Source of the DNA: a virus
Taxonomy: Duplodnaviria > Caudoviricetes
Length of the DNA: 64,000 nucleotides
IMG/VR virus record: IMGVR_UViG_3300042691_024284
Location: 759 to 64,758 of that record
Reading direction: 5' to 3' (one strand)
Numbering within the stretch: the stretch's first letter is position 1; each line of letters opens with the position of its first letter. The notes under the pieces were generated by a model. That model was given only the letters and a program-made list of their open reading frames with translations. It was not told where the DNA came from and made no database searches. Both the position numbers and the translations under genes were made by a program. Positions 28,426 to 45,766 of the stretch are shown here, piece after piece.

Positions 28426-28647
28426 TTAATAGCGCGGGCCGAAAGTATCTTTTACGTTGGTGTAGGGGCCGACCGGCGCGCGACTCGAAGTCTTAGCCTG
28501 GGCAGCACCACGCTTCCAGTTATTATCGCGATGAGATCCTGATGAGCCCGGATCAATATCCGTCGCTCCGTTGCCGCCGCCATAACCCGGTTTGCCGGTC
28601 TCCTGATAGGTCTGACGAAATCCTTTTAGTTGCTGGTCTGATGCCAT
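28426..28647 (-). CDS. Small hypothetical protein
   Basis: TAATG coupling to portal; RBS AGGAG. Confidence 0.6.
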   Translation of the reverse strand: MASDQQLKGFRQTYQETGKPGYGGGNGATDIDPGSSGSHRDNNWKRGAAQAKTSSRAPVGPYTNVKDTFGPRY

Positions 28648-31394
28648 TAAACTACTCCTTGTGGTGGTTGTTGGGCTTGTATTTGTGCCTTAACTGCTTC
28701 TGCTTGTTGACGAAATGCTTCTTGCTCTACGGCGATGCCATGTTTACGGATGTCCGCATCGGCCGTGTTGATTGCATCAATAGCAGACATAATCTGCTCG
28801 CTCTCAAGCTGACGCTGCATGCCGTCTAGCTGAGCGCCAGTTTGCATGGCCGCAATTCGCTCGCGCGATGCGTTGTTGATGTTTGCCGCCGCAATATTGG
28901 TTGCGTTTTTCTGGCTGTCAATCTGGCTCTGAGTCTGATACTTAGCCATGAGCTCAGTAACACGCTGCTGCAACTCGGCAACCTTGATCTCGTAATCTTG
29001 CTTTTGCTGAGCTGCTTGCTGTTGCATCTTAGCCATAGCTTCCTGCGCCTTGCGCTGGGTCTCAGCCATCTGCGTTTTCATCAGCACGTTAGCTGTCGGA
29101 TCCATCGCCGCGGCCTGCTCCATCGCAGCCTGCTTAGCCTGCTGCACTTTCTGCACCAGGCCCATAATCGCGGGCTGTGCGCCTTGGAATGTGGCCTGAG
29201 CGTCCTGGCTGACCATTTCTGCAGCCAAAGCAAGCGCTTGTTGGTCTTCCAACGTAAGCGGTTTCTCTTCGTGCAGTCGCAGCACGTCTTGCCCGCCAGC
29301 TGCCTCGGCCACATACGAGCGCATTGACTGCAGATAATGCAATGTCAAGTGCTGTTTTAAGTGCTCCAAAGCGATGGGCGCAAATTGTGGCCCAATAAGG
29401 GGGCTGCCACCATAATTGGGGTCCTGAGCATACGCCAAGTGAACCTTGATGTGCGCTAGATGGTCCTGATCCGGGTAGGCTGCCGCGGGGCGGCCCATGG
29501 ACATTGCAACGTTCTCCAGGGCAGGATTAGACTCCTTGATTCCGTCCGGATCTGGCAATATCTCGCTAATCGCAGGAACTTTTAGCTGCTTCAGAACGCG
29601 CCGGTGGGCAGCGCGAAGGTCGTACAATTGCGGCGCAGAATTAGCTATCTGCAGGATAGCTTGCGCCTGTGCCAAGCGCTGTGTCTCTGAGAAGATGTTA
29701 GGGTCCGACACCGGCCGGATGTCGTTGTTGGATGCAAAGTCACGCACTTCAATCTCGGTGCCCGACTGATTGTCCATTTCCTCCAAGTACCAGTGATTGA
29801 TACGTGAAAGGATCTTAAACGACTTGGCCTGTGAGCGATGCATCCGCGCATGGATGCTTGAAAACACCTTAGCGCCTTGCTCAATAAGTGCCTGGGTGGT
29901 GCCCACTGGCGTGTTAGCGTTTGCGTCGCCAATTTTCTCTTCGGCGGTTGTCACCACGCCTTTTGCAGCGGTTGTTAACCATCCGAGGAGGTTGTATAAA
30001 ACACTCGAGGGTTGGTTAAACGGCAACGGCATAGCCAACTTGCGGACATCGTCCACACCAGGGGCACCTTCAATTTCTAAAACCTGCGTCGGTTCAATTC
30101 GATCACTCTGACCGGAGATGCGTCCGCCCTTAAGCTTAAGCATCGTCTGACTGTTGTTGATATGTGCAGAATCCAACAGAGCGCGAAGAGCGCCAGTAAG
30201 GGCGGCAGACAAACCACCAATAAGATGAGGAAGCCCAATGGCGTACGCACCACGCCACGGAATAAACTTAAACTCGACAATCCAGTCCAGTTTCGTAAGC
30301 TTTTCATCGCCTGACTCCCAGTTACGGTAAAGCGACAGAACCTTGTTGCTGCTGTCGTCGATGGTTAAAATGTATGGAGCGCGACGACCTTCTGTTTCTG
30401 GATCATCTTTCAGTCGCAAAAAGCAAGTGATCTCATAAACACGACGGACGTTGTCAATGTTTTTATCCGGCAGCGACTTGCCCTCGATCTTGTCGTTGGC
30501 TTTTGTCGAGCGCGTTTGTTCGTCTTGCTCAATGCCAGAGGGTGGGATGCTATCGATGTCACGATATAATCCTTGATCCACACGCTGGCGGAACACATCT
30601 TCCGTAATGTCTTGCTGTTCAGTTACTCGCGGCGAACTGTAAAAGTTTGTCGTTGAGTACGGCAAGAAGATGTTGTCAATCGGGATCCACTCGCAGGTGG
30701 GCCGGCACTGCTCATTGTCCCAGCGCCACTTGAAGTATTGCGAGCCTCCCAACGGAAGCTGCGTGAGGATCTGCTCCATCTCATCGCGGTATTCCTCAAC
30801 CTGCTCCGTGAGCTGCCAGTTAAGAAACTGCGACTTGCGCTCTGCAACTTCTACGCGTTTGCGGTCTGCCTCACCTTTTATTTCCGACTTAACAATACCT
30901 TCAGGCGGAAGAAGCTCTCTTGCGCTAGATGCTGCAAAGTCGACACAAGCTTCTGCCATGACAGGATGCACAACTTTGGAAGCTCCGTCAAAAGTTGCGC
31001 CACCTGGCGCGTCTTTTCCAAGTCCTGTCCTTCGTAGTCCTTCTTCATACTGCTTATCTCTTTCTTTCCGCGCCTCGCGGTCAACCGTTATGTATTCTTC
31101 GTATTCGTTAGCAAGCGCGTCCAAGACGCCCTCATCCATAGTTTCCGCAAGGTTAGCGTAAAACTCTGGGTTTTGGTTGGGGCCTTCTTTTGGCGCGTAA
31201 TTAATTACAACTGAACCATCGTCAAGCTCAATAACCTCTTCATCGCTTTCGCCCGGCTCTAAGCCAAGGACCTCTTCGATGTTTTCAATCTCTTGCTCTT
31301 GCATCAAAGACTCTTGAAAATCTTCATCTTTGCGCAAGTCAAGCGAGCTTAGTGAAGCTCCTTGCTGAATTGGCATTTGAGGCAGTTGGGGCAT
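28647..31394 (-). CDS. Portal protein
   Basis: 915 aa; GAS.V.HPV.AEA.V.F, N.PVGTT.AL.EQG and PVSDPN.FS..QR motifs; Gln-rich barrel-like tail. Confidence 0.9.
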   Translation of the reverse strand: MPQLPQMPIQQGASLSSLDLRKDEDFQESLMQEQEIENIEEVLGLEPGESDEEVIELDDGSVVINYAPKEGPNQNPEFYANLAETMDEGVLDALANEYEEYITVDREARKERDKQYEEGLRRTGLGKDAPGGATFDGASKVVHPVMAEACVDFAASSARELLPPEGIVKSEIKGEADRKRVEVAERKSQFLNWQLTEQVEEYRDEMEQILTQLPLGGSQYFKWRWDNEQCRPTCEWIPIDNIFLPYSTTNFYSSPRVTEQQDITEDVFRQRVDQGLYRDIDSIPPSGIEQDEQTRSTKANDKIEGKSLPDKNIDNVRRVYEITCFLRLKDDPETEGRRAPYILTIDDSSNKVLSLYRNWESGDEKLTKLDWIVEFKFIPWRGAYAIGLPHLIGGLSAALTGALRALLDSAHINNSQTMLKLKGGRISGQSDRIEPTQVLEIEGAPGVDDVRKLAMPLPFNQPSSVLYNLLGWLTTAAKGVVTTAEEKIGDANANTPVGTTQALIEQGAKVFSSIHARMHRSQAKSFKILSRINHWYLEEMDNQSGTEIEVRDFASNNDIRPVSDPNIFSETQRLAQAQAILQIANSAPQLYDLRAAHRRVLKQLKVPAISEILPDPDGIKESNPALENVAMSMGRPAAAYPDQDHLAHIKVHLAYAQDPNYGGSPLIGPQFAPIALEHLKQHLTLHYLQSMRSYVAEAAGGQDVLRLHEEKPLTLEDQQALALAAEMVSQDAQATFQGAQPAIMGLVQKVQQAKQAAMEQAAAMDPTANVLMKTQMAETQRKAQEAMAKMQQQAAQQKQDYEIKVAELQQRVTELMAKYQTQSQIDSQKNATNIAAANINNASRERIAAMQTGAQLDGMQRQLESEQIMSAIDAINTADADIRKHGIAVEQEAFRQQAEAVKAQIQAQQPPQGVV

Positions 31395-32724: not shown

Positions 32725-34164
32725 CTACTGAGCGTACGGGTTGTAGCGTTGCTTGCTGCGATCATCTGCGTAGTCATAGTCGCGCGCTGGCAGCGGATCA
32801 AGCTGTATCCACCCCGAGTCACGCAGCACGCGCAGCGCTTGGGACAGGCTGTCCACGTAGTCATCGTGTCCCCCAGACTCGGGAAACGCACAGACCTGGC
32901 GCAGAAAACGTTTGGCCCACTCGGCGTACTCGCCGTCCTTTTTGGCATCCTCCGGTATGTACACCTTGCCCTTTGCTATGAGAGGCGCCACGATGTTGAT
33001 ACGCTGCACCTTGTCCGCTCTACCAGGGTTGTACGCCCTGACCGGCACGCCGGCACCTTGCAGCTCCTGGATGAGCGAGATACCAGCCGACTTATCCTCC
33101 ATCAGAATCAAGTCCGCCTTTCTGCCTTTGGCAAACGTGTTATCCGCGCCGTACACAACCTCTTTAAAGTCGTTGATTACCTTTTTGCGCAGCTCCGGAT
33201 ATGACAGGTGCGCGTCCCATGCGTCTAGCAAGATGATGCACGTGCCCTTGTCCTGGTTCTCAAACACGCCCCACACCTCACAGGCTGTCGGGTCGTTGTG
33301 TGTCTTCTCGCTGGTAGCCGGGTCGTATGACGCAATCACATACTCCAGCGTTGGCGTTTCCTTTTTGGACGGCCACATCTTAAACCACTTGCGCTTTACA
33401 ATCCCCGCGTCCTCCGGGTTTAGGATCTCGCCATAGATCTCCTGCTTACCCAGGTCTGTGCCTTCGTACGTCTCAAGCTGCTTGAAAAACGTCGCTGACA
33501 GGTTTTGACGGTTATCATAAGACGACGCGTTCACCATGTACACGTCGCCCCCGACCTTCCCTTCAGCCAGATCGACAATTAACTCCTTTGGCTTAGGCGT
33601 AGTGGTTATGATCTGCTGCACCCGGGCTATGTTTGGGTGCTTTAAGCGCAGGGTGAACTGCACTTGATCGTACGCATCGTCGATGTACTCGAATGCGCAC
33701 AGCTCATCAAACCAGGCCCCGTGAAACTGCTTGCCTCGATACCGCTCTGGCTCAGAGCCGGGTATGCCCTGGATGATAGAGCCGTTGATTAGCGTCACCT
33801 CAAAGAGCGATTTGTTGTAGTCCTGGATTAACGAGTGCGGGATGATGTTAAGCAATCCCGAGTCACCCTCAAAACACGTCGCCCGGATGTCATTTGACGT
33901 CGGCGCTGTCACTAACCACCTCGTTTGCGCGTTTTTCCACGCCCGAATCCCAATCCAGTGGCTTGCGGTGTGCGTTTTGCCTGATCCGCGGCCGGCAAGC
34001 ATCAAAAACGTGTCATATTCGCCGCCGTCCGGCTCTCTTTGGTGTCCCAAAGCGCTTAATTCCCATCTAACCTGCCACAAAGCCGCGTCTAGCTGCGGTT
34101 TTGGCCAGTGTTTGTTGTTCTTCGCAAAATCCGCCAGGATTTTTTCTTGCTTTTTGCTCAACAT
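32725..34164 (-). CDS. terL: Terminase large subunit
   Basis: Walker A AGRGSGKT, Walker B WFDE, TTTP coupling motif; nuclease motifs SYDPA, EDKSAG and HDDYVDS. Confidence 0.95.
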   Translation of the reverse strand: MLSKKQEKILADFAKNNKHWPKPQLDAALWQVRWELSALGHQREPDGGEYDTFLMLAGRGSGKTHTASHWIGIRAWKNAQTRWLVTAPTSNDIRATCFEGDSGLLNIIPHSLIQDYNKSLFEVTLINGSIIQGIPGSEPERYRGKQFHGAWFDELCAFEYIDDAYDQVQFTLRLKHPNIARVQQIITTTPKPKELIVDLAEGKVGGDVYMVNASSYDNRQNLSATFFKQLETYEGTDLGKQEIYGEILNPEDAGIVKRKWFKMWPSKKETPTLEYVIASYDPATSEKTHNDPTACEVWGVFENQDKGTCIILLDAWDAHLSYPELRKKVINDFKEVVYGADNTFAKGRKADLILMEDKSAGISLIQELQGAGVPVRAYNPGRADKVQRINIVAPLIAKGKVYIPEDAKKDGEYAEWAKRFLRQVCAFPESGGHDDYVDSLSQALRVLRDSGWIQLDPLPARDYDYADDRSKQRYNPYAQ

Positions 34165-35120
34165 ATTGAGATAAATCCCTCACTTGCCAGAAAAGGCCGG
34201 TCCGCAATGACATGAACGCACTGCTTAGGGTCGATTTTCTTGATTTTTCGTATGTATCTGCGCTTTAAGCGCCCGTTTTTGTCATCTAACCTGAACGCCA
34301 GCTTGTAGTTTGACGTATTCTCAGGCAAATACAGCATCGTCTTACACCCAAACGACTCAACCAGCGCCTGGTAGCGCCTGATTGTGGGGTAGTGCGCGTC
34401 GTAGATGCAGTATTTTTTGTACTCCTCGTCCCATCTGACGTACGAGTTGGCATCAATTAGCCCCTCGAGCAACTCCCTTCGCTGTTCCGGTGAGCTCTCG
34501 ATGTAACTAAACGGCAGCGTCGTTGGGATGTCGGCCCCAGCAAACAAAAACGTGTCCTTAATCGACGGCCGAAACTCAAACATCAGTTTGCGGTGTCTGG
34601 ATCTGCCCACCTTTATAAAAAACCCGTGCCGCCTGCAGCGCTTCCTAACCTTCTCCACATCCATCTTACCTACCAGGTTTAGGCCCGACGGTCGCAGTGA
34701 GCCTAACCACACACCCATCACGTAGGGCGGCACCGGCAGATCCTTCCATGTGTAACGCAGCGGCTCGCACACTTGTATGGACCAAGTCTTAGGCTCGCCC
34801 TTAACCAGCTCATCGACAGCCAGGATCTTTGGCTGCGATCTCAGCGGTTTGGAATACTTTTTGCCGCGGTTCTTCACCCACCTCGACAGATTGTCTCTAT
34901 ACGTCTTGTCTTGTAGCGGGAGCGTCATGTGCGCATCACCTACCAGGTCCAGCCCATCGTCGAACGCCACCTGATAGCACGCGCTCGGTATGTACTGCTG
35001 CACCGATCTCACCGGCTGGGCGCAGCCCTCTTGGTCAAAAACTAGATCACCAGGGCGTAGATCGATTGCCCGTCGCCAGCCATCAAGCGTTGGTATTGGC
35101 GTCGTTGCTGCTAGGCCCAT
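34158..35120 (-). CDS. Free-standing degenerate intein-like protein (Hint plus LAGLIDADG remnant)
   Basis: L..TTPIPT.DGW...DL.PGDLVF...G, LPVPPY.MG.WLG, S.EQRRELLEGLID and block F-like C-terminus; lacks the terminal His-Asn. Confidence 0.75.
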   Translation of the reverse strand: MGLAATTPIPTLDGWRRAIDLRPGDLVFDQEGCAQPVRSVQQYIPSACYQVAFDDGLDLVGDAHMTLPLQDKTYRDNLSRWVKNRGKKYSKPLRSQPKILAVDELVKGEPKTWSIQVCEPLRYTWKDLPVPPYVMGVWLGSLRPSGLNLVGKMDVEKVRKRCRRHGFFIKVGRSRHRKLMFEFRPSIKDTFLFAGADIPTTLPFSYIESSPEQRRELLEGLIDANSYVRWDEEYKKYCIYDAHYPTIRRYQALVESFGCKTMLYLPENTSNYKLAFRLDDKNGRLKRRYIRKIKKIDPKQCVHVIADRPFLASEGFISIC

Positions 35121-35307
35121 GCCTTTTTGTCTTCTTTCTTTTCCGGTCGTTTAACAGCGCGCGCTGGGATGCGCCAGGGGACAACCAAATTTCCTTAAAG
35201 TATCCATCGAGCTTGCGCTTATTGGTGTACGCAAAAAAGATATAACCGTCCTTGCGCAGATCTCCTCTGTGGAAGTGCACGTTTGTTTCTGGGTTAAGTC
35301 GCTTCAT
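35083..35307 (-). CDS. Small basic hypothetical protein
   Basis: RBS GGAGG and promoter motif upstream; first gene of the late operon. Confidence 0.65.
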   Translation of the reverse strand: MKRLNPETNVHFHRGDLRKDGYIFFAYTNKRKLDGYFKEIWLSPGASQRALLNDRKRKKTKRHGPSSNDANTNA

Positions 35308-35324
35308 ACCAGGCCTCCATATAC

Positions 35325-35335
35325 CTACTAATGCA
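35325..35335 (-). promoter_or_regulatory. Phage-specific promoter motif TGCATTAGTAG
   Basis: Repeated motif at the head of the minus-strand operon. Confidence 0.7.
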
Positions 35336-35352
35336 AAAAATAAATGGGGACA

Positions 35353-35573
35353 GCTGTCAAGGGTTGCGGGGGTTGCTGGGGTCTAAACCAGGTCCGTCTC
35401 TCTTTTTGTTTTTTCTTTTTTCTAAAAAAAAATAAAAGTGAAATAGACCCCAGCAACCCCCGCAACCCTTGACAGCAGAAAAATTTTATCAACAAAATCA
35501 ACAACTTACAAAAACGCGGTATAGAGAAAAATGACCCTTATACCCTTGACACGACCCCGGCAACCCTTGACAA
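35353..35573. repeat. Origin-like element, copy L: perfect 33-bp inverted repeat around a 58-bp AT-rich spacer, IHF site and third iteron block
   Basis: Arms at 35353-35385 and 35444-35476; WATCAANNNNTTR at 35496-35508; block at 35542-35573; inverted homolog at 43201-43419. Confidence 0.9.
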
Positions 35574-35593
35574 CTTGTACGCACAAGCAAAAG

Positions 35594-35624
35594 TTATCCA
35601 AAGTTATCCACAGAGTTATCCACA
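35594..35624 (+). promoter_or_regulatory. Three tandem DnaA boxes
   Basis: TTATCCAAA 35594, TTATCCACA 35604, TTATCCACA 35616. Confidence 0.8.
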
Positions 35625-35775
35625 GGTTGCCTATTTTTGCGATTGTCTCTATACCTGTCTCTATACCTAAAAAAATATAAAAAATTGCAAAAACTGGCGG
35701 TTTGGGGTGGGGCCACCGCCGCCCTCCCCGACAGGACCCGTTCAGGTGTATCGTCCCTATTTTCGACCCCGGCCC

Positions 35776-35970
35776 TGCTGCAGCGCACCAATTTGCTGCA
35801 TTGCACCACCCCCAGTTAGCGCTCACTAACTTTGTGCAGTGCAACATGTTAGTGAGTACTAACTAACCTACGTGCTGCAGTGCAGCACCCCCAGTTAGCG
35901 CTCACTAACATACATGCTGCATTGCACCACCCCCAGTGAGCGCTCACTAACCTAATTGCCGCGCTGCAAT
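35776..35970. promoter_or_regulatory. PhaR-like TGC-N3-GCA sites (5 clear, 1 degenerate)
   Basis: Sites at 35776, 35794, 35832, 35873, 35915 and (35957); fit TGCRNYGCASMA. Confidence 0.6.
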
Positions 35971-36121
35971 ATGTGAGTGAGCACTCACTGACATATAGGC
36001 AAGACCCCTAGCAAGAATCATGCCAGCTTGGGCAGGCACGCATATTGCCCTAGCAAGAATCATGCCAGCTTGGGCATGCAAGAATCGTGCCAGATTGCCG
36101 GCTAAGTGAGTGAGTACTCGC
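35815..36121. promoter_or_regulatory. Six SlmA-binding-site-like palindromes
   Basis: GTTAGCGCTCAC 35815, GTGAGTACTAAC 35852, GTTAGCGCTCAC 35894, GTGAGCGCTCAC 35936, GTGAGCACTCAC 35977, GTGAGTACTCGC 36110; consensus GTGAGTACTCAC. Confidence 0.75.
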
Positions 36122-36164
36122 GTGCGCGAGCTAGAGATCTGGGCATAAAGCAAAAAACGTGCCC
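36011..36164. promoter_or_regulatory. Five sigma54 (-24/-12) elements
   Basis: Minus strand: TGGCATGATTCTTGC (36011, 36053), TGGCACGATTCTTGC (36078), GGGCACGTTTTTTGC (36150). Plus strand: AGGCACGCATATTGC (36034). Confidence 0.75.
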
Positions 36165-36193
36165 GCGCTCCGGATCCGGCAGGCATAAAAAGT

Positions 36194-36216
36194 ACCCTGA
36201 AAAAACCAGTATAGTG
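36194..36216 (+). promoter_or_regulatory. Early promoter-like repeat ACCCTGAAAAAACCAGTAYARTG, copy 1
   Basis: 3 copies (36194, 37053, 38563), each ending in a -10-like hexamer upstream of a gene or RNA. Confidence 0.7.
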
Positions 36217-36243
36217 AGACCATTACATATAGGAGATCTCACC

Positions 36244-36990
36244 ATGCTAAAAAAACCTAAGACCCTGCTATCAGTCGACACGAATGCCAAGACCGTTAAA
36301 GGCCAAACACTGGGTTTTCTCACTGGCATTTTATATCTGGCGCCGTCGGACCAATCGGGCCATCAGATCTGTCCCATGGCCAAGCTTGCACAATGCGAGG
36401 CACCATGCCTCTACACTGCCGGCCGTGGCGCCATGTCATCAGTGCAGCGCGCACGCCTAAATCGTACAGCGCTCTTTTTTAATGAGCGCGAATGGTTTAT
36501 GCAACAGCTAGTGCAGGACGTCGCCTCGTTAGTCCGTAAGGCAGCGCGGCGAGGCATGACCCCGTTAGTCCGCCTCAATGGCACGTCCGATATTCGCTGG
36601 GAAAATATTCGCATGGCCGACGGCCGAACCATTTTCGAGATCTTCCCGGACGTGCAGTTTTACGATTACACGAAGCTTGCCAATCGTCGCGACGTCCCTG
36701 CCAATTACGATCTGACGTTTTCTTACTCCGGCGCTGCAGGGTTTCGCGATTATGCGCGGCGTGCAATTGATGCAGGCATGCGCGTCGCCGTCGTTTTCCG
36801 CACGCGTGAGTCTATCCCGGAGACATTCGAGGGCATGCAGTGCATTGGCGGAGACGATAGCGACGTGCGTCATCTTGAACCCCGTGGCGTCGTCGTCGCG
36901 CTGTACGCTAAAGGTCCTGCACGCCGTGACGTGTCGGGTTTCGTGATCGACAGCGCGCCGCGCGTGATCCCGATCAAGCTTGCAGCGTAA
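36244..36990 (+). CDS. Gp88-like protein (radical-SAM-like Cys motif)
   Basis: CP.A....C...CL..AGRG, RLNGTSDI.WE, VQFYDYTK and NY.LTFS motifs; RBS AGGAGA before 36244. Confidence 0.75.
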   Translation: MLKKPKTLLSVDTNAKTVKGQTLGFLTGILYLAPSDQSGHQICPMAKLAQCEAPCLYTAGRGAMSSVQRARLNRTALFFNEREWFMQQLVQDVASLVRKAARRGMTPLVRLNGTSDIRWENIRMADGRTIFEIFPDVQFYDYTKLANRRDVPANYDLTFSYSGAAGFRDYARRAIDAGMRVAVVFRTRESIPETFEGMQCIGGDDSDVRHLEPRGVVVALYAKGPARRDVSGFVIDSAPRVIPIKLAA

Positions 36991-36994
36991 TCCA

Positions 36995-37046
36995 GCATCA
37001 CTGATGAGGCCTGAATGGCCGAAACCCCGGCGACGGGGTCTGATGC
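36995..37046 (+). ncRNA. Type I hammerhead ribozyme HH1
   Basis: GCATCA-CTGATGA-GGCC(TGAAT)GGCC-GAAA-CCCCG(GCGA)CGGGG-TC-TGATGC. Confidence 0.92.
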
Positions 37047-37052
37047 AAAACC

Positions 37053-37075
37053 ACCCTGAAAAAACCAGTACAATG
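37053..37075 (+). promoter_or_regulatory. Early promoter-like repeat, copy 2
   Basis: -10-like TACAAT. Confidence 0.7.
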
Positions 37076-37101: not shown

Positions 37102-37275
37102 ATGAGCACACCACAGACCCCGATCACTGTCAGCATGTTGTCCGAGTACTTGCGCGGCGATAGCTGTTCCGAATTACAGGCATTCAGCGCCATGGCCATG
37201 CTGGCCGAAATCCTAAACGGCGAGATCGATCTCGAGCAGATCCGCCTCAGCGTGCTAGCGGAGACCCAACCATGA
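37102..37275 (+). CDS. Small early protein, 57 aa
   Basis: Repeated leader CAACACGGAGAAAACACC-ATG. Confidence 0.65.
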   Translation: MSTPQTPITVSMLSEYLRGDSCSELQAFSAMAMLAEILNGEIDLEQIRLSVLAETQP

Positions 37276-37534: not shown

Positions 37535-37741
37535 ATGCAAAACTGGCAATTAATAGATGCAAACAATAGCCCGGTAGCTATCGGCGACGCTATCGTTTCA
37601 TTTCGCGGCGAGCAGGCCACACTCAAGGGCTGCAGCCCTCCGCAACATGCGGGATCTACTGGCAGGGTTTACGTAGGCGGAGGAGAGTATTATCCGTCCG
37701 TGTACGGTTTGAAATGGGTCAGCATCACTGACGAGGCCTGA
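37535..37741 (+). CDS. Small early protein
   Basis: Repeated RBS leader; stop codon lies inside HH3. Confidence 0.65.
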   Translation: MQNWQLIDANNSPVAIGDAIVSFRGEQATLKGCSPPQHAGSTGRVYVGGGEYYPSVYGLKWVSITDEA

Positions 37742-37773
37742 ATGGCCGAAACCCCGGCGACGGGGTCTGATGC
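37722..37773 (+). ncRNA. Type I hammerhead ribozyme HH3
   Basis: Core CTGACGA (variable position 7 = C); stems intact. Confidence 0.92.
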
Positions 37774-37796: not shown

Positions 37797-38588
37797 ATGA
37801 CAACAGAAAACGCACAATGGGCAGCGCTGCTGTCCGACGCTGTCAACAAACCCGGCATTCTGTCGAGCGCCTACTCGGCATTCCATAATTACAGCATCGG
37901 GAATCAGATGCTGGCTTGGGGTCAGCTACACCAGCGAGGAATTCCGCTCGGGCCAATTGCCACATTCAAAGACTGGCAAAAACTCGGCCGGCAAGTGAAA
38001 AAAGGCGAAAAGGCCATTTCTCTTGTCATGCCAGTGACAGTGAACAAAAAAGACGAGACCGGCGAAAAGACGGGCGACTCGTTTACATGGTTTGCGCTCA
38101 AACCCCGCTGGTTTGTGCTCAGCCAGACAGACGGCACTGACTACGTACACGAGGCCAAGACGCCAGACTGGGACCCTGCGCTGGCACTGGCAGCGCTCGA
38201 CATTCAGGAAATTCCATTCGAGAGCGCCGACGGCAATTGTCAGGGCTATGCATCATCGCGGCAGATTGCAGTTAATCCAATTGCTGCACTGCCGCATAAA
38301 ACGCGATTCCATGAGCTAGCGCACGTCGTGCTCGGCCACACTGCCGAGGGCACGATGCAAGACGACGAGCGCACGCCGCGGGACATTCGCGAAGTCGAGG
38401 CAGAGTGCGTCGCCTACATTTGTGTGTCCCTGCTGGGCTTGTCCGGACAGCAAGAGTCGCGCGGGTATATCCAGCACTGGCTAGCTGGCGCCGAGATCGG
38501 CGACAAATCAGCGCAGAAAATATTCGCCGCCGCGGACAAGATTCTGAAAGCTGGCAAAAACCACCCTGAAAAAACCAGTACAGTGTAA
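37797..38588 (+). CDS. ArdC-like antirestriction protein (ssDNA-binding N-domain plus HExxH domain)
   Basis: HNYS.GNQ.L, ATF..W..LGRQVKKGEKAI, FHELAH and E.EAE.VAY motifs. Confidence 0.8.
   Translation: MTTENAQWAALLSDAVNKPGILSSAYSAFHNYSIGNQMLAWGQLHQRGIPLGPIATFKDWQKLGRQVKKGEKAISLVMPVTVNKKDETGEKTGDSFTWFALKPRWFVLSQTDGTDYVHEAKTPDWDPALALAALDIQEIPFESADGNCQGYASSRQIAVNPIAALPHKTRFHELAHVVLGHTAEGTMQDDERTPRDIREVEAECVAYICVSLLGLSGQQESRGYIQHWLAGAEIGDKSAQKIFAAADKILKAGKNHPEKTSTV
38563..38585 (+). promoter_or_regulatory. Early promoter-like repeat, copy 3
   Basis: -10-like TACAGT about 11 nt before the structured RNA. Confidence 0.65.
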
Positions 38589-42242: not shown

Positions 42243-42830
42243 ATGGAGCGTACAGATTTGAAAAGAGATAAGACCGCGCTGTCTGACTATATCCGGGTGC
42301 TTTACAGGCACACGGTGCTGCCAGTACAGGAAGAAGAGCGGCTATCGAAGATGATACAGGCCGGAGACAACGCCGCATTGGAAAAGCTAGTGCGGCACAA
42401 TCTCCGGTTTGTCGTTTCGGTGGTCAAAGAAATGCCAATCTGGCAAAACGGCTCGGTGCCGTTCGAGGACATCGTTGCTATCGGTAACGAGTCGCTGCTG
42501 AAAGCAGCCCGCAAGTGGGTGCCAAAAAATGGGGCTCGGTTTGCCACGTACGCCAAGCCATTCATTATCAAGGGAATCAGGAGGGCTCTTGATAATGAGT
42601 GGTCAATGATCCGCGTGCCGGTGAACATCCTCGAAGAGATCCGCCGCATGAAGTATCTCGAGCGGGTTTTGTCGCAAGAGTTAAAACGGGACCCGACAGC
42701 CAGGGAGATTGCAGACCGGATGAAAGTGCACGAAAGCAGGATCACGGAGCTGCAAAATCTCCTGACCCTGGAGCCGGTGTCGCTTGAGGCCTACAACCAA
42801 GAGAAATTCCACGAGGAGAGCGAAGAATGA
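42243..42830 (+). CDS. Sigma70-family factor with regions 1.2, 2 and 3 but no region 4
   Basis: EE..L...IQAGD.AA..KLV.HNLRFVVSV, G.RFATYA...I, IRVP and R.PT..EIA; ends shortly after PVSLE. Confidence 0.88.
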   Translation: MERTDLKRDKTALSDYIRVLYRHTVLPVQEEERLSKMIQAGDNAALEKLVRHNLRFVVSVVKEMPIWQNGSVPFEDIVAIGNESLLKAARKWVPKNGARFATYAKPFIIKGIRRALDNEWSMIRVPVNILEEIRRMKYLERVLSQELKRDPTAREIADRMKVHESRITELQNLLTLEPVSLEAYNQEKFHEESEE

Positions 42831-43181: not shown

Positions 43182-43202
43182 AAATGAGAATCATTCGCAT
43201 TT
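43182..43202. promoter_or_regulatory. Fur-box-like site
   Basis: AAATGAGAATCATTCGCATTT near-palindrome. Confidence 0.6.
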
Positions 43203-43419
43203 GTCAGGGGTTGCCGGGGTCGTGTCAGGGGTAGAGACGCGATTTTCCATATACTACCCCCTTTGCAACCCATTGATTTAATTGAAGAAAAAATTTGCTG
43301 TCAAGGGTTGCGGGGGTAGCGGGGGTCTATTTCACTTTTATTTTTTATTTTGAAAAAAGAAAAATAAATTTAAGAGGGAAGTACGTTTAGACCCCAGCAA
43401 CCCCCGCAACCCTTGACAG
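43201..43419. repeat. Origin-like element, copy R (inverted relative to 35353-35573)
   Basis: Block at 43201-43232; IHF site 43266-43278 (minus); arms at 43297-43329 and 43388-43419 around a 58-bp AT-rich spacer; abuts the primase gene. Confidence 0.9.
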
Positions 43420-43459: not shown

Positions 43460-45766
43460 ATGACCAGACCAACAGCTTTGCCGGTGCAATTTGACCAGAT
43501 CCCCATGACGCTGAAGATGATTCCGCGCTGGGTAGTCTGGCAATTTGTCGAGGTGGAAACCGCCGATGCCCGCAAATGGGCTAAAATTCCCCTACAAGCC
43601 GCTACTGGACTTCGTGCTAGTAGCACCAACCCCGACACGTGGGCAGACTTCCTAACAGCCCAAAAAGCCTATCAGACGGGCAAGTATGATGGCGTCGGAT
43701 TTGTCTTCATCAATTCTGACAACCTGGTAGGCGTCGATTTGGACGATTGTTTGTCCGAAAATGGGCAAATCACTAGCCCTGATGCAGCCACGATGCTGGA
43801 AAACATCGACGGCTACGCTGAAAAGAGCCCATCAGGAACCGGCGTGAAGATCTTCACGAGGACCACGCTGCACTCAGCCCACGTTGACCACAGCAAAGGC
43901 CTGGAGATCTACCCACACGCCCGATACTTTACAGTGACGGGCCATTATCTGCAGGGTGCCATACCCGAGCATGAAATTGATCTGTCCCCATTTATTCCGC
44001 CGCGCACGATCCATCGCTCGGGGGATGACTTCGCGGACTACACGCCGCCGGTGGAGGAGTATGACCTGGCCAGGGTGGAGCGGGAGATCCTCGCTAACCT
44101 GGACCCCGACTGCGGCTACACAGACTGGCTGACAGTGGGCATGGCCATGCACCACCAGTTCCAAGGCTCGGACGATGCGCTCGAGATGTGGGACAACTGG
44201 TCCTACCAAAATGGGGACTGTCCCTCATATTCACCCAACGAGTGCCGGCGCAAGTGGTCAACGTTTTCCAAAAAGGGCGGGGCCACGCTGCGCTCGTTGA
44301 TCTTCAAAATTAACCAAGTAAAAAAGCAGGAGGCCCTAGCACGTGGCGAGATCGTGCTAGACCAGGCCCCGCTGGACCACGCTCGCCAGTTCCTCGAGGC
44401 TAACCACACAACCGAGGAGGGCGTGCGGCTGGTGCACTACGCAGAGGACTACTTCGTGCACAAGGCCACGCACTACGAGGAGATTGAAGAGGCGACGATA
44501 CGCTCGCAGCTCTACAAGTTCCTCGACAAGTGCAAAAAGACAGACCGGCGAAGTAACTTGCTGCCGTTCATGCCAACGCCGGCGACGGTGACCGCGGCGC
44601 TCGACGCAACCAAAGCGCTCGTGCACCTGGAGAATCACCCCAACACCAAACCGCCGGTGTGGTTAGATGGTTACGCTAACGGCAAGCCCGCAGCATCGAA
44701 GCTGATTAGCGTAAAAAATGGGCTTTTCCATTTGGAAGAGTCGGTGCTGCTGCCACACAGCCTGGGGTTTTTTACGCAGAACAGTTTGCCGTTCGAGTAT
44801 GACCCCAAGGCAGCGTGTCCGACGTGGGAGAAGTTTCTCACGCAGATATGGGGCCACGATCAGGAGTCAATCGACACACTGCAAGAGATCTTCGGCTACG
44901 TCTTATCGGGCGACACGCGGCAGCAGAAATTTTTCAACGTGATCGGTCCGCGCAGATCAGGCAAGGGCACGATCAACAAGGTGCTCGTGGAGCTGCTGGG
45001 TCAGCACAACACAGTCGCACCAGAATTAGGAGAGCTCTGTGATACTTTCGGTCTTCAGCCTTGGCTGGGCAAGTTGCTCGCTAGTTTTACGGACGCACGA
45101 GCGCCTGAACGGAATCGAAGTGCTGTTGTCTCTCAGCTTTTAAGGATTGTAGGGGGCGACACGGTAACGGTGAACCGCAAAAACAAAGAGGCCTGGAACG
45201 GCTACTTGCCAACGCGGATCATTGTTTACTCAAACGAGGTCCTGCAGCTGACAGAAAACTCAAACGCGCTGACAGGCCGCATGATTGTGTTAAAGATGAC
45301 GCAGTCGTTTTACGGCAAAGAGGATACCGAGCTTGCCGCCAAACTGATGAAGGAGTTATCCGGCATCTTTAATTGGAGCATGGTCGGCCTGCGGCGCCGG
45401 ATGGAGCGGGGCGGGCACTTCCTGCAGCCAACCAGCGGCATCGATTTGCTGGAGATCATGGAGGATCTGTCCAATCCGATCAATCTGTTTTATCGTGATG
45501 TGCTCATGGAAGACCCCGAGGGATCAGTCGATAAAGATGATCTGTTTAAAGTCTTCAAAAAGTGGTCGCAGGAAAAAGGCATGCACCCTGGCACCGATTT
45601 ATCATTTAAGCGTAAGTTCCTCGCAGCAACGCAAGACAAGCCCATTACAACGGCAGTGTCGAGGGTTGAGGGCCGGCGTGAGAATGTGTATCGCGGGGTG
45701 AAGCTGACCGATAAGGCACAAAGTTTTGTCAATAGTCTAAGTGAATTTAACGAAAGGATTTTCTAA
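43460..45766 (+). CDS. Primase-polymerase / PriCT-2 / D5-like SF3 helicase fusion
   Basis: GVDLDDC, E.SPSG.G, W..VGMA.H and Walker A GPRRSGKGT motifs. Confidence 0.92.
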   Translation: MTRPTALPVQFDQIPMTLKMIPRWVVWQFVEVETADARKWAKIPLQAATGLRASSTNPDTWADFLTAQKAYQTGKYDGVGFVFINSDNLVGVDLDDCLSENGQITSPDAATMLENIDGYAEKSPSGTGVKIFTRTTLHSAHVDHSKGLEIYPHARYFTVTGHYLQGAIPEHEIDLSPFIPPRTIHRSGDDFADYTPPVEEYDLARVEREILANLDPDCGYTDWLTVGMAMHHQFQGSDDALEMWDNWSYQNGDCPSYSPNECRRKWSTFSKKGGATLRSLIFKINQVKKQEALARGEIVLDQAPLDHARQFLEANHTTEEGVRLVHYAEDYFVHKATHYEEIEEATIRSQLYKFLDKCKKTDRRSNLLPFMPTPATVTAALDATKALVHLENHPNTKPPVWLDGYANGKPAASKLISVKNGLFHLEESVLLPHSLGFFTQNSLPFEYDPKAACPTWEKFLTQIWGHDQESIDTLQEIFGYVLSGDTRQQKFFNVIGPRRSGKGTINKVLVELLGQHNTVAPELGELCDTFGLQPWLGKLLASFTDARAPERNRSAVVSQLLRIVGGDTVTVNRKNKEAWNGYLPTRIIVYSNEVLQLTENSNALTGRMIVLKMTQSFYGKEDTELAAKLMKELSGIFNWSMVGLRRRMERGGHFLQPTSGIDLLEIMEDLSNPINLFYRDVLMEDPEGSVDKDDLFKVFKKWSQEKGMHPGTDLSFKRKFLAATQDKPITTAVSRVEGRRENVYRGVKLTDKAQSFVNSLSEFNERIF

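What the first reader, a model, noticed from the sequence alone, without database searches (positions are those of the whole stretch)
35594..36164. Ordered array of host-protein binding sites (DnaA x3, PhaR-like x5-6, SlmA x6, sigma54 x5) at the strand switch
Seen: about 570 bp with no credible ORF, made largely of four motif classes arranged in blocks. DnaA boxes come first, then alternating TGC-N3-GCA and GTGAGYRCTCAC palindromes, then GG-N10-GC elements. Known: these match consensus sites of DnaA, PhaR, SlmA and RpoN, four unrelated host proteins, and T5 has DnaA boxes and repeats near its injection-stop signal. Inference: this is probably close to the genome end that enters the cell first. 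It could act as a cis-acting landing pad that ratchets DNA in, tethers the genome, or titrates host replication, division, PHB and nitrogen regulators without phage protein synthesis. I consider this the best candidate for an undescribed system.
Basis: partly seen in the sequence, partly recalled or inferred. Interest (0 to 1): 0.92.

Follow-up and report, generated by a model that had tools for sequence, protein, structure and literature searches.

The report
Phage control region packed with host-factor sites
A 940-base gene-free stretch of an uncultured freshwater phage carries ordered clusters of sequences that match the binding sites of four host proteins (DnaA, PhaR, SlmA and the sigma-54 polymerase), which suggests that the phage ties its replication and gene switching to the state of its host.

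Summary
Window 35308-36243 is a 936-bp non-coding hub between the leftward packaging and structural genes and the rightward early genes of a complete 64.8-kb phage.

All four motif classes exceed chance, cluster only here, and recur upstream of the terminase genes in related phages:
- DnaA boxes: 3 adjacent.
- PhaR-type operators: 5-6.
- SlmA-type palindromes: 5 plus 1 weaker, alternating with the PhaR-type sites every ~20 bp.
- Sigma-54 promoter consensus: 5.

A betaproteobacterial MAG that co-bins with two related phage contigs encodes SlmA (same recognition helix as solved SlmA), PhaR and RpoN. In it the PhaR-type palindrome lies upstream of phaZ and a weak phasin-like ORF. The sigma-54 consensus lies upstream of fliE, flgF and flgB. 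The phage has no recognisable EBP, TetR, SlmA or PhaR homologue.

Just left of the reported span lies an origin-like inverted iteron/AT-rich element. Each lineage has its own iterons and a second copy before its primase-helicase gene.

Best reading (0.5): an origin plus transcription-switch hub wired to host regulators. The "leading-end landing pad" idea could not be tested. No binding has been shown.

The parts
35353..35476 (.). Origin-like element. Two 33-bp perfectly complementary arms (35353-35385 and 35444-35476), each built of three 9-bp iterons, flank a 58-bp T-run/A-run spacer.
   Evidence: Repeat I1 and family D6. Each related lineage has different iterons that match in both arms. An inverted second copy lies at window 43201-43419.
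35542..35572 (+). Extra iteron copies (ACCCTTGACA twice).
   Evidence: Families D6 and D11.
35594..35624 (+). Three head-to-tail DnaA boxes: TTATCCAAA, TTATCCACA, TTATCCACA.
   Evidence: A perfect box occurs in the upstream region of 11 of 42 related loci and never in the 242 kb of the rest of those loci.
35644..35667 (+). Two tandem copies of TGTCTCTATACC; an inverted copy lies at 35518-35530. Binder unknown.
   Evidence: D14 and I24. CTCTATAC copies were seen in the relatives inspected by eye.
35667..35775 (.). A-tract (35667-35695) followed by a G+C-rich block (35696-75). This was the block most alike in the relatives I read by eye. Function unknown.
   Evidence: It is present even in lineages that lack the other motif classes (L027, L055, L074, L085).
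35776..35969 (.). Six PhaR-type operators (TGNTGC-N3-GCANCA): A1 35776-90, A2 35794-808, A3 35832-46, A4 35873-87, A5 35915-29, and the degenerate A6 35955-69.
   Evidence: Motif TG[N]TGC[N]3GCAA from PMC3206438. The same 15-mer lies upstream of phaZ and a phasin-like ORF in MAG G006.
35815..35988 (.). Five SlmA-type 12-bp palindromes: B1 35815-26, B2 35852-63, B3 35894-905, B4 35936-47, B5 35977-88. They interleave with the A sites.
   Evidence: 5 against 0.17 expected. SBS rules from PMC3020112. B4 and B5 meet every rule; B1-B3 have T at the tolerant position 3 of one half.
36011..36092 (.). Cluster of sigma-54 promoter-type elements: minus strand 36011-25, 36053-67, 36078-92; plus strand 36035-48. 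The plus element and the minus element at 36053 face each other with 4 bp between their -12 ends.
   Evidence: The element at 36078-92 (TGGCACGATTCTTGC on the minus strand) matches all 12 specified positions of TGGCACnnTTnTTGC (PMC8743547). Strict matches occur in 15 of 29 lineages.
36110..36130 (.). Weaker SlmA-type site GTGAGTACTCGC (36110-21) overlapping the palindrome CTCGCGTGCGCGAG (36117-30).
36150..36163 (-). Fifth sigma-54-type element (GGCACGTTTTTTGC).
36186..36243 (+). Early promoter-like motif CCCTGAAAAAACCAGTATAGTG and the leader of the first early gene (GP88 family, ATG at 36244).
   Evidence: The motif recurs before the genes starting at 37102 and 38727 and before the first early gene in relatives.
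43201..43419 (-). Second, inverted copy of the iteron/AT-rich element, ending 41 nt before the primase-helicase gene (43460-45766).
   Evidence: 80% identity over about 220 nt; sequence. Clearly conserved with lineage-specific iterons in 4 of 5 relatives examined, with a more divergent form in the fifth (L030).

Best explanation
Window 35308-36243 is the phage's main cis-acting control hub. It combines a replication origin with a transcription switch, and most of its sites are probably read by host proteins rather than phage proteins.

Proposed mechanism (steps 1-3 are inferred):
1. The phage primase/SF3-helicase binds lineage-specific 9-bp iterons that flank an AT-rich unwinding spacer (35353-35476). 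A partner copy lies before its own gene, as with ori and crr of phage P4. The three phased DnaA boxes next to it bring in host DnaA.
2. To the right, PhaR-type and SlmA-type operators alternate every two helical turns, so all sites face one side of the DNA. They would build a host-protein complex whose occupancy follows host state, because PhaR leaves DNA when PHB granules form.
3. Four or five near-consensus sigma-54 promoters sit beside the array, most pointing left through the array and the origin towards the packaging genes. They would need a host enhancer-binding protein. Origin activation and/or leftward (late) transcription would then be gated by host carbon-storage and nitrogen or flagellar signalling.
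4. A separate conserved promoter motif at 36186-36216 serves the rightward early genes.

Shown here: the anatomy, the excess over chance, the conservation in relatives, and the presence of cognate proteins and matching sites in a candidate host genome. Not shown: any protein binding or any transcript.
For: Excess and clustering:
- SBS-like sites 5 against 0.17 expected.
- Sigma-54-like elements 5 against 0.56.
- PhaR-type matches 12 against 3.7, with 9 in 154 bp.
- Three adjacent DnaA boxes.

Conservation in 42 related loci, 69 kb upstream against 242 kb of the rest:
- SBS-like 54 against 2.
- Sigma-54-like 74 against 1.
- DnaA 16 against 0.
- PhaR 15-mer 36 against 1.

By lineage, of 29: SBS-like (up to 1 mismatch) in 20, sigma-54-like in 15, perfect DnaA box in 7. 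The exact SBS consensus GTGAGTACTCAC occurs in 7 of 27 lineages.

Fit to published sites.

No phage-encoded binder recognised:
- No Sigma54_activat, TetR_N or HTH_8 domain in the genome.
- No tblastn match to the MAG's SlmA or PhaR at E below 0.7.

Candidate host, from two related phage contigs binned in a betaproteobacterial MAG. That MAG has:
- SlmA, 277 bits against a cut-off of 120, with recognition helix VSEAALYRHF as in solved SlmA.
- RpoN and PhaR.
- The PhaR-type 15-mer at 12 sites against 1 for the control pattern. Four of the 12 are on phage contigs. The other 8 include sites upstream of phaZ (570 bits), a weak phasin-like ORF and PEPCK.
- Exact TGGCAYG-N4-TTGCW at 6 sites against 1 for the control. 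Two are on a phage contig, and 3 of the other 4 lie 45-211 nt upstream of fliE, flgF and flgB.

Link between classes: a PhaR-type core ends 4-5 nt upstream of the GG of the sigma-54-type element in 8 of 44 elements, in 5 lineages.

Origin:
- The second iteron copy before the primase gene carries the same lineage-specific iterons in L009, L012, L015 and L074; L030 is more divergent.
- Primase residues 661-768 are 37-75% identical in lineages with other iterons, against 83-96% in the helicase core, and 95% in L009, which shares the iterons.
- Limnohabitans phage DC31, unrelated in structural genes, has 5 perfect DnaA boxes with one such sigma-54-type element among them in a non-coding repeat region.
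Against: - No binding or transcription data exist.
- The host assignment rests on metagenomic binning of two contigs in one MAG.
- SBS-like 12-mers are not enriched in that MAG: 0 exact, and 10 with up to 1 mismatch against 20 for the control pattern.
- Position 4 of the SBS, critical for E. coli SlmA, varies in 32 of 152 half-sites. GTGTGC is common in L012, L015 and L020.
- GTGAG-N2-CTCAC could suit other dimeric helix-turn-helix proteins.
- No PhaR-type site was found in the 3.3 kb around the MAG's own phaR, and the phasin match is below its cut-off (21.8 against 30.2 bits).
- Sigma-54 geometry is odd. Plus and minus elements face each other 3-4 bp apart in most lineages. The four minus-strand elements lie 700-850 nt from the first leftward gene. 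The spacer ATTC is more conserved than sigma-54 needs.
- Motif blocks are swapped between lineages. L027 has four TTGACATATCTCA repeats in place of both palindromes. That also fits lineage-specific phage regulators.
- About 30 small early ORFs have no assigned function.
- No sequence match to the P4 alpha DNA-binding domain was found.
Confidence: 0.5

Rival explanations
1. The palindromes and the GGCAYG-N4-TTGC elements are operators for phage-encoded regulators, meaning small early proteins of unknown fold. Their likeness to host consensus sites would be chance or convergence. Only the DnaA boxes would be host sites.
For: - Divergent early/late control regions of phages usually hold operators for the phage's own regulators (general knowledge).
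- Motif blocks are exchanged between lineages; L027 and L030 carry a different repeat.
- About 30 early ORFs have no family.
- The ATTC spacer of the sigma-54-type element is conserved, and the inverted composite looks like a 32-bp operator.
- SBS position 4 varies.
- SBS-like 12-mers are not enriched in the MAG.
Against: - No TetR, EBP or Fis-type HTH domain and no SlmA or PhaR homologue in the phage.
- The same 15-mer sits upstream of phaZ and a phasin-like ORF on non-phage contigs of the MAG, and is enriched there 12 to 1 over the control.
- The sigma-54-type element equals the consensus used before the MAG's flagellar genes.
- The palindromes stay the same across lineages whose iterons and early genes differ.
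Confidence: 0.25
2. The region marks the physical genome end or packaging site. The iterons and repeats would be terminase recognition sites, and the host-factor sites would act on the first DNA to enter the cell, as in the model proposed for the T5 injection-stop region.
For: - It lies directly upstream of the terminase genes.
- In Caulobacter phage GB2A (TerL 44% identical) a 2,940-bp terminal repeat covers the DNA upstream of the terminase genes.
- GP88-family genes lie within 0.5-2.5 kb of the record start in several podophage records.
- The protein encoded next to TerL (34158-35120) varies with the iterons, at 28-83% identity, while TerL stays at 82-96%.
- T5-like phages carry DnaA boxes in a non-coding repeat region (bioRxiv 10.1101/866236, abstract and section 18).
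Against: - The iteron element has a second copy directly before the primase-helicase gene in every relative examined, which a packaging site does not explain.
- The record is a circular-type assembly with terminal overlap placed elsewhere.
- Nothing in the reads or contigs marks an end here, although that test had no power.
Confidence: 0.12
3. The array encodes a structured non-coding RNA. The palindromes would be hairpins, transcribed leftward from the sigma-54-type promoters.
For: The minus-strand RNA of 35660-36010 folds far better than shuffles (z = -6.3). Promoter-like elements point into the array.
Against: - The strong fold follows trivially from the palindromes.
- Variants are one-sided without compensation (GTGTGCGCTCAC, GTTAGCGCTCAC), as expected for protein sites rather than helices.
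- Unit orientation flips between lineages (L023 against the window).
- No Rfam family reaches its threshold.
Confidence: 0.04

Closest known systems
Injection-stop (iss) region of T5-like phages
   Same: A large non-coding region full of repeats, inverted repeats and palindromes, with a conserved set of DnaA boxes. It is proposed to act through host DnaA without phage proteins (bioRxiv 10.1101/866236, abstract and section 18 read).
   Different: - T5 has 8 boxes in pairs inside two inverted repeats within a terminal repeat. Here there are 3 direct boxes next to iterons.
- No terminal position is shown here.
- Three further host-factor site classes are present here.
- T5's origin lies elsewhere, whereas here an origin-like element adjoins the boxes.
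Phage P4 ori/crr with the alpha primase-helicase
   Same: A primase fused to an SF3 helicase, and two separated clusters of short iterons, one beside the replication gene. That P4 alpha has a C-terminal winged-helix DNA-binding domain comes from passages of PMC2777425. The ori/crr arrangement itself is recalled, not read.
   Different: - The N-terminal primase here is of PriCT/prim-pol type.
- No detectable sequence match to the P4 alpha DNA-binding domain.
- The iterons here are 9-mers in inverted triplets around an AT-rich spacer.
- P4 replication does not use DnaA (recalled).
Host nutrient-regulator sites in cyanophage genomes (NtcA and Pho boxes)
   Same: Phage promoters carry binding sites of a host global regulator, so that phage genes follow host nutrient status. 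All 16 cyanomyovirus genomes have 1-16 NtcA sites (PMC3037559, passages).
   Different: Those sites are scattered before individual genes. Here four different host-factor site classes are packed in order into one 600-bp non-coding block, two of them strictly alternating. PhaR, SlmA and sigma-54 sites in a phage did not turn up in my searches.
Chromosomal SlmA-binding sites (SBS) of E. coli
   Same: A 12-bp palindrome GTGAGTACTCAC with G, T, A, G required at positions 1, 2, 4, 5 (PMC3020112, passages). B4 and B5 obey every rule, and the exact consensus occurs in 7 related lineages.
   Different: - Chromosomal SBSs are dispersed. Here 5 sit within 174 bp, interleaved with a second operator type.
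- The extended flanks (GTTA...TAAC) are conserved.
- Position 4 varies in some lineages.
PhaR/PhbF operators of Betaproteobacteria
   Same: The motif TG[N]TGC[N]3GCAA, footprinted for Herbaspirillum PhbF (PMC3206438, passages). The same palindrome lies upstream of phaZ and a phasin-like ORF in MAG G006.
   Different: Host operators are single sites overlapping sigma-70 promoters of PHB genes. Here there are 5-6 copies in a phage. In the window the last base is mostly C or G rather than A. In other lineages the operator abuts a sigma-54-type element.
Non-coding repeat region of Limnohabitans phage DC31 (PQ492658.1)
   Same: A 930-bp gene-free region upstream of early genes, including a GP88 homologue. 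It holds direct repeats, 5 perfect DnaA boxes with the same GTTATCCACAGG flanks, and one GCAAGTATCATGCCAG element that is 15 of 16 identical to the window's sigma-54-type element.
   Different: It is a different phage (classified under Pakpunavirus in its record). It has no SBS-like, PhaR-type or NtrC-like sites in the 8.7 kb examined.

Membership tests
DnaA-box cluster (host DnaA binding) | 9-mers matching TTATCCACA, or TT(A/T)TNCACA | tested here: met
   Two perfect boxes and one with a single mismatch at 35594-35624. Consensus as quoted in bioRxiv 10.1101/866236, section 18.
DnaA-box cluster (host DnaA binding) | Clustered, phased boxes next to an AT-rich region | tested here: met
   Head-to-tail boxes, 10 and 12 bp start to start. 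AT-rich stretches lie 42 bp to the right and about 150 bp to the left.
DnaA-box cluster (host DnaA binding) | Conserved in relatives | tested here: inconclusive
   A perfect box occurs in 7 of 29 lineages, only upstream of the terminase genes. Some lineages have an NtrC-like palindrome at that position instead.
SlmA-binding site (SBS) | 12-bp palindrome with G, T, A, G at positions 1, 2, 4, 5, a purine at 3 and a pyrimidine at 6 | tested here: met
   All 5 sites keep positions 1, 2, 4, 5 and 6 in both halves. Two of 5 also have a purine at position 3 in both halves. Three of 5 have T at position 3 of one half.
SlmA-binding site (SBS) | Host encodes SlmA with the same recognition helix | tested here: inconclusive
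   Met for MAG G006, but the link between this phage and that MAG is only the binning of two related contigs.
SlmA-binding site (SBS) | The same motif is used on the host chromosome | tested here: not met
   MAG G006 has 0 exact sites and 10 with up to 1 mismatch against 20 for the control pattern. The flanks of those 10 sites do not resemble the phage sites.
SlmA-binding site (SBS) | SlmA binds and is activated against FtsZ | not testable with these tools
   Needs EMSA or footprinting and FtsZ assays.
PhaR/PhbF operator | TG[N]TGC[N]3GCAA motif | tested here: met
   Five sites match TGNTGC-N3-GCA, four of them on both strands. The final A is present in A3 and A6 only. Perfect matches occur in L015, L023, L094 and L095.
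PhaR/PhbF operator | The same operator precedes PHB genes in the host group, and phaR is present | tested here: met
   MAG G006 has PhaR at 138 bits. The 15-mer lies upstream of phaZ (570.6 bits) and a phasin-like ORF (21.8 bits, below its cut-off), and occurs at 12 sites against 1 for the control. None was found at the phaR locus itself.
Sigma-54 (RpoN) promoter | TGGCACnnTTnTTGC with GG and GC 10 bp apart | tested here: met
   The element at 36078-92 matches 12 of 12 specified positions. The other four match GGCAYG-N4-TTGC.
Sigma-54 (RpoN) promoter | Host has rpoN and uses this consensus | tested here: met
   MAG G006 has RpoN at 201 bits. Three of 4 non-phage exact matches precede fliE, flgF and flgB.
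Sigma-54 (RpoN) promoter | An enhancer-binding protein and its upstream activating sites | tested here: inconclusive
   The phage has no EBP. NtrC-box-like palindromes (up to 1 mismatch) occur in 15 of 29 lineages. The window has one, GCACCAATTTGCTGC, with 1 mismatch.
Sigma-54 (RpoN) promoter | A gene at the usual distance downstream; a transcript start | tested here: inconclusive
   The plus-strand element is 196 nt before the GP88 gene. The minus-strand elements are 700-850 nt from the first leftward gene and face the plus-strand element. No RNA data.
P4-type origin (ori/crr with primase-helicase) | SF3 primase-helicase plus two separated iteron clusters | tested here: met
P4-type origin (ori/crr with primase-helicase) | C-terminal iteron-binding (winged-helix) domain | tested here: inconclusive
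   The C-terminal 108 residues diverge along with the iterons, but there is no sequence match to P4 alpha in the PDB search. No fold was predicted.
T5-type injection-stop region | Lies in the terminal repeat at the end that enters first | tested here: inconclusive
   No raw reads mapped and the contigs say nothing about ends.
T5-type injection-stop region | Eight DnaA boxes in pairs inside two inverted repeats with 52-bp spacers | tested here: not met
   There are three direct boxes outside the inverted repeat, whose spacer is 58 bp.

The most novel reading that the evidence does not exclude
The block is a host-takeover and state-sensing device that works as DNA, without any phage regulator. 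As the phage genome multiplies, its five to six SlmA sites per copy load and activate host SlmA, and so stop FtsZ-ring formation. That would be a division block made of DNA rather than a Kil-type protein. Meanwhile the interleaved PhaR operators, and the sigma-54 promoters fired by a host NtrC- or flagellar-type activator, would let origin firing and leftward late transcription go ahead only when the host holds PHB reserves and is in the right nitrogen or motility state.
Probability: 0.2. Interest if true: 0.9.

Novelty: new variant of a known kind. Interest (0 to 1): 0.72.

Why it matters
Phages are known to borrow single host regulators, for example LexA, NtcA, PhoB, or DnaA at origins. My literature searches found no description of any of the following:
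- a conserved, ordered block that joins sites for a replication initiator, a carbon-storage repressor, a nucleoid-occlusion factor and the sigma-54 polymerase;
- phage sigma-54 promoters;
- PhaR or SlmA sites on phage DNA.

If the sites are used, this abundant family of freshwater phages (254 related loci in IMG/VR) would read host physiology directly from host proteins. That bears on how phages time replication and lysis in nutrient-poor waters. It would also give a DNA-only way to interfere with host cell division.

Limnohabitans phage DC31 and its host offer a cultured system for the DnaA-box/sigma-54-type part.

Tried and rejected
- **Rfam scan of 35200-36400, both strands.** Only sub-threshold microRNA-hairpin matches caused by the long inverted repeat. 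Rejected.
- **Simple sigma-70 promoter and terminator scan.** No more sites than in shuffles.
- **RNA fold of the array.** The strong fold follows from the palindromes and was not taken as evidence.
- **DNA search of the region against cultured phages.** No match.
- **Sequencing runs.** No RNA holder listed. 20 rows from 11 studies hold part of the stretch.
- **Reads.** The two raw-read runs (X21, X22) laid 0 reads. The contigs of X1 and X5 break at the inverted repeat and at strain variants. This gave no information on ends, starts or expression.
- **Closest GenBank relative by TerL (MW202545).** Its unannotated gap upstream of the terminase genes did not resemble the array when I read it by eye; I ran no motif or ORF scan on it.
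- **Caulobacter phage GB2A.** Only the annotation table was read; its sequence was not scanned.
- **MAG phaR locus.** No PhaR-type motif.
- **Flanks of the MAG's 10 SBS-like sites.** No shared extension; all lie in long open frames.
- **PDB sequence search with the primase-helicase.** No P4 alpha hit.
- **Pfam on 10 small early proteins.** Nothing above the cut-offs.
- **p74 (35083-35307).** No family. In one search it was not detected in L027, which has sigma-54-type elements, nor in L034, L047, L055 and L074, which have SBS-like sites. So it is not tied to those site classes.
- **NtrC as binder of the window's A sites.** Considered because of the TGGTGCA half-site, but dropped in favour of PhaR, since the half-sites are everted with 1-bp spacing. 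True NtrC-box palindromes exist in other lineages.
- **Fisher tests of co-occurrence.** Not used as evidence, because the lineages are related.
- **Correction.** My note says sigma-54-like elements occur in 17 of 29 lineages. The right count is 15 of 29.
- **Not seen.** Supplementary tables of the papers cited (SBS lists, RpoN and NtrC site lists) were closed and could refine the motif comparisons.
Full report
**Context**

The window is bases 759-64758 of a 64,758-bp IMG/VR virus record rated complete, with terminal overlap.

Leftward genes end at 35307:
- a 74-aa ORF, 35083-35307;
- a variable 320-aa protein, 34158-35120;
- the large terminase, 32725-34164;
- the portal, 28647-31394.

Rightward genes begin at 36244 with a GP88-family protein, followed by an ArdC/M78-like protein.

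Further right lie a sigma-70-type factor, a PriCT/D5 primase-helicase (43460-45766), an SNF2 helicase, DUF2800, an Enc34-type SSB, a ribonucleotide reductase and a family-A DNA polymerase. No integrase or partition gene appeared among the proteins I scanned. There is no close cultured relative: TerL is at most 53% identical to any GenBank phage.

**The observation**

Against dinucleotide-preserving shuffles of the whole window:

| Pattern | Found | Expected | Where |
|---|---|---|---|
| GTNAGYRCTNAC | 5 | 0.17 | all in 35815-35988 |
| GGCAYG-N4-TTGC | 5 | 0.56 | all in 36011-36163 |
| TGNTGC-N3-GCA | 12 | 3.7 | 9 in 35776-35929 |

- Two of the window's three perfect DnaA boxes, plus a one-mismatch box, lie at 35594-35624.
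- Bare GG-N10-GC (658 hits) and TGCANTGCA alone are not informative.
- The two palindrome classes alternate at 18-22.5 bp centre to centre, so all sites face one side of the helix.
- The longest open frames across the region are not kept as frames in the nearest relative. A strain variant has a 2-nt insertion inside one of them.

**Full anatomy, left to right**

1. A perfect 33-bp inverted repeat made of three 9-bp iterons per arm, around a 58-bp T-run/A-run spacer (35353-35476).
2. Two more iterons (35542-72).
3. Three DnaA boxes.
4. Two copies of TGTCTCTATACC.
5. An A-tract and a G+C-rich block (35667-35775).
6. Six PhaR-type and five SlmA-type sites, interleaved (35776-35988).
7. Four clustered sigma-54-type elements (36011-36092).
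8. A weaker SlmA-type site overlapping a CTCGCG-N2-CGCGAG palindrome.
9. A fifth sigma-54-type element (36150-63).
10. A promoter-like motif, CCCTGAAAAAACCAGTAyArTG, that recurs before two later early genes.

**Relatives**

TerL finds 254 related loci in IMG/VR, of which 80 were fetched. Gene order is conserved. In the 42 loci with enough upstream DNA, the motif classes are almost confined to the 1.7 kb upstream of the terminase genes:

| Class | Hits in 69 kb upstream | Hits in 242 kb of the rest |
|---|---|---|
| SBS-like | 54 | 2 |
| Sigma-54-type | 74 | 1 |
| Perfect DnaA box | 16 | 0 |
| PhaR 15-mer | 36 | 1 |

After collapsing near-duplicates to 29 lineages:
- SBS-like sites with up to 1 mismatch occur in 20.
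- Strict sigma-54-type elements occur in 15.
- Perfect DnaA boxes occur in 7.
- NtrC-box-like palindromes occur in 15.

The exact E. coli SBS consensus occurs in 7 of 27 lineages. The classes are combined differently in different lineages:
- L027 and L030 keep the sigma-54-type cluster but carry four TTGACATATCTCA repeats instead of the palindromes.
- L074 pairs SBS-like sites with perfect NtrC boxes.
- L065-L068 have none of the four classes.

**Identity of each class**

*SlmA-type.* The published site is GTGAGTACTCAC. G, T, A, G are required at positions 1, 2, 4, 5; any purine is tolerated at 3; a pyrimidine is preferred at 6 (PMC3020112, passages). B4 and B5 obey all of this. B1-B3 have T at position 3 of one half. 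Across relatives, positions 1, 2, 5 and 6 are almost invariant. Position 4 varies in 32 of 152 half-sites, which does not fit the E. coli rule.

*PhaR-type.* Herbaspirillum PhbF protects a site containing TG[N]TGC[N]3GCAA (PMC3206438, passages). The window's A sites fit this through GCA, and other lineages have perfect matches.

*Sigma-54-type.* The holoenzyme consensus is TGGCACnnTTnTTGC (PMC8743547, passages). The element at 36078-92 matches every specified base, including the internal TT. The commonest form in relatives is the same 14-mer.

*DnaA.* The boxes match the consensus quoted in bioRxiv 10.1101/866236, section 18.

**Who could bind**

The phage shows no Sigma54_activat, TetR_N or HTH_8 domain. 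It has no tblastn match to SlmA or PhaR.

TerL finds two related phage contigs in one MAG labelled as an uncultured betaproteobacterium. This is a weak host clue. The MAG shows the following:
- It encodes SlmA at 277 bits, with a recognition helix identical to solved SlmA. It also encodes RpoN and PhaR.
- The PhaR-type 15-mer occurs 12 times against once for the control pattern. Four sites are on the phage contigs, three are intergenic and five lie inside ORFs.
- The three intergenic sites lie upstream of phaZ, a weak phasin-like ORF and PEP carboxykinase.
- The strict sigma-54 pattern occurs 6 times against once for the control. Two are on a phage contig, and three precede fliE, flgF and flgB.

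Against the host-factor reading:
- SBS-like 12-mers are not enriched in the MAG.
- Its phaR locus has no PhaR-type site.

**Links between classes**

In 8 of 44 sigma-54-type elements, from 5 lineages, a PhaR-type core ends exactly 4-5 nt upstream of the GG. In L038 and L095 an NtrC-box-like palindrome lies just beyond it. This is a compact activator-site, repressor-site, promoter arrangement.

In most lineages one plus-strand and one minus-strand sigma-54-type element face each other 3-4 bp apart. Both could not be occupied at once. This may be a direction switch, or a sign that another protein reads the pair.

**The origin-like part**

The inverted iteron/AT-rich element has a second, inverted copy ending 41 nt before the primase-helicase gene. 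In L009, L012, L015 and L074 the copy near the primase carries the same lineage-specific iterons as the copy near the terminase genes. L030 is more divergent.

The last 108 residues of the primase-helicase are among its most variable parts between lineages with different iterons. They are 95% identical in L009, which shares the iterons. This parallels the P4 alpha protein with its C-terminal DNA-binding domain (PMC2777425, passages). P4's paired ori and crr I recall but did not read. No sequence match to that domain was found.

An unrelated cultured phage of Limnohabitans, DC31, has five perfect DnaA boxes with one nearly identical sigma-54-type element among them, in a non-coding repeat region.

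**Reading**

I rank the explanations as follows:

| Explanation | Confidence |
|---|---|
| Origin plus transcription-switch hub that recruits host DnaA, PhaR, SlmA and sigma-54 polymerase | 0.5 |
| Operators of unknown phage regulators | 0.25 |
| Packaging or entry-end region | 0.12 |
| Structured RNA | 0.04 |

My rough per-class odds of real host-protein binding are DnaA 0.85, sigma-54 0.65, PhaR 0.6 and SlmA 0.45. These are judgements, not computed values.

The entry-end idea stays open because the read test had no power. A distant relative, Caulobacter phage GB2A, has a long terminal repeat covering the DNA upstream of its terminase genes.

**Novelty**

Host-regulator sites in phage genomes are known, for example NtcA in cyanophages (PMC3037559) and DnaA boxes in T5 (bioRxiv 10.1101/866236). 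Three full-text searches found no report of sigma-54 promoters, PhaR operators or SlmA sites on phage DNA. That library lacks most subscription journals. I rate this a new variant of a known kind, with interest 0.72.

Noticed in passing
window 43201-43419: Second, inverted copy (80% identical) of the iteron/AT-rich element, directly before the primase-helicase gene. It is conserved with lineage-specific iterons in relatives.
   Followed up: yes
window 36186-36216, about 37045-37075 and about 38555-38585: Three copies of an unusual promoter-like motif, CCCTGAAAAAACCAGTAyArTG, before early genes. It has no TTGACA-like -35 element at the usual distance.
   Followed up: partly
window 35667-35775: An A-tract followed by a G+C-rich block (GGGGCCACC ... 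GGACCC ... GGTGT). This is the part of the region most conserved across all lineages read by eye, including those lacking the four motif classes. It could be a cos-type site or a structured element. Not resolved.
   Followed up: partly
window 35518-35530 and 35644-35667: The TCTCTATACC motif (two direct copies and one inverted) recurs in the relatives inspected, also next to the start of the first leftward gene. Binder unknown.
   Followed up: no
window 34158-35120 (-): The 320-aa protein next to TerL matches terminase PHROGs and a LAGLIDADG-like domain. It is only 28-83% identical among relatives whose TerL is 82-96% identical. Several IMG/VR contigs end at or near the 5' end of TerL.
   Followed up: partly
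window 42243-42830 (+): Phage-encoded sigma-70-family factor of 195 aa. Pfam finds regions 2 and 3 but no region 4. Its promoters were not identified.
   Followed up: no
loci L074, L038, L094, L095, L033, L023 (upstream of the terminase genes): Perfect or near-perfect NtrC-box palindromes (GCACCA-N3-TGGTGC). In L038 and L095 they form cassettes of NtrC-like box, PhaR-type operator and sigma-54-type element.
   Followed up: partly
loci L027, L029, L030, L039: One lineage replaces both palindrome classes with four TTGACATATCTCA repeats but keeps five to six sigma-54-type elements.
   Followed up: partly
window about 37020-37050 and 37700-37760: A repeated G+C-rich stem-loop (GCCGAAACCCCGGCGACGGGGTCTG) between early genes. 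It also occurs in relatives and is possibly a terminator or processing site.
   Followed up: no
L125 (MAG G006, contig C107): A PhaR-type 15-mer lies between mnmE (my reading of the translated ORF, not tested with a family search) and a GTP-dependent PEP carboxykinase gene (814.8 bits). This hints that PhaR reaches into central carbon metabolism in this bacterium.
   Followed up: partly
L128:1637-2568 (Limnohabitans phage DC31): A 930-bp non-coding region with several direct-repeat families, five perfect DnaA boxes and one sigma-54-type element. It looks like that phage's origin.
   Followed up: partly
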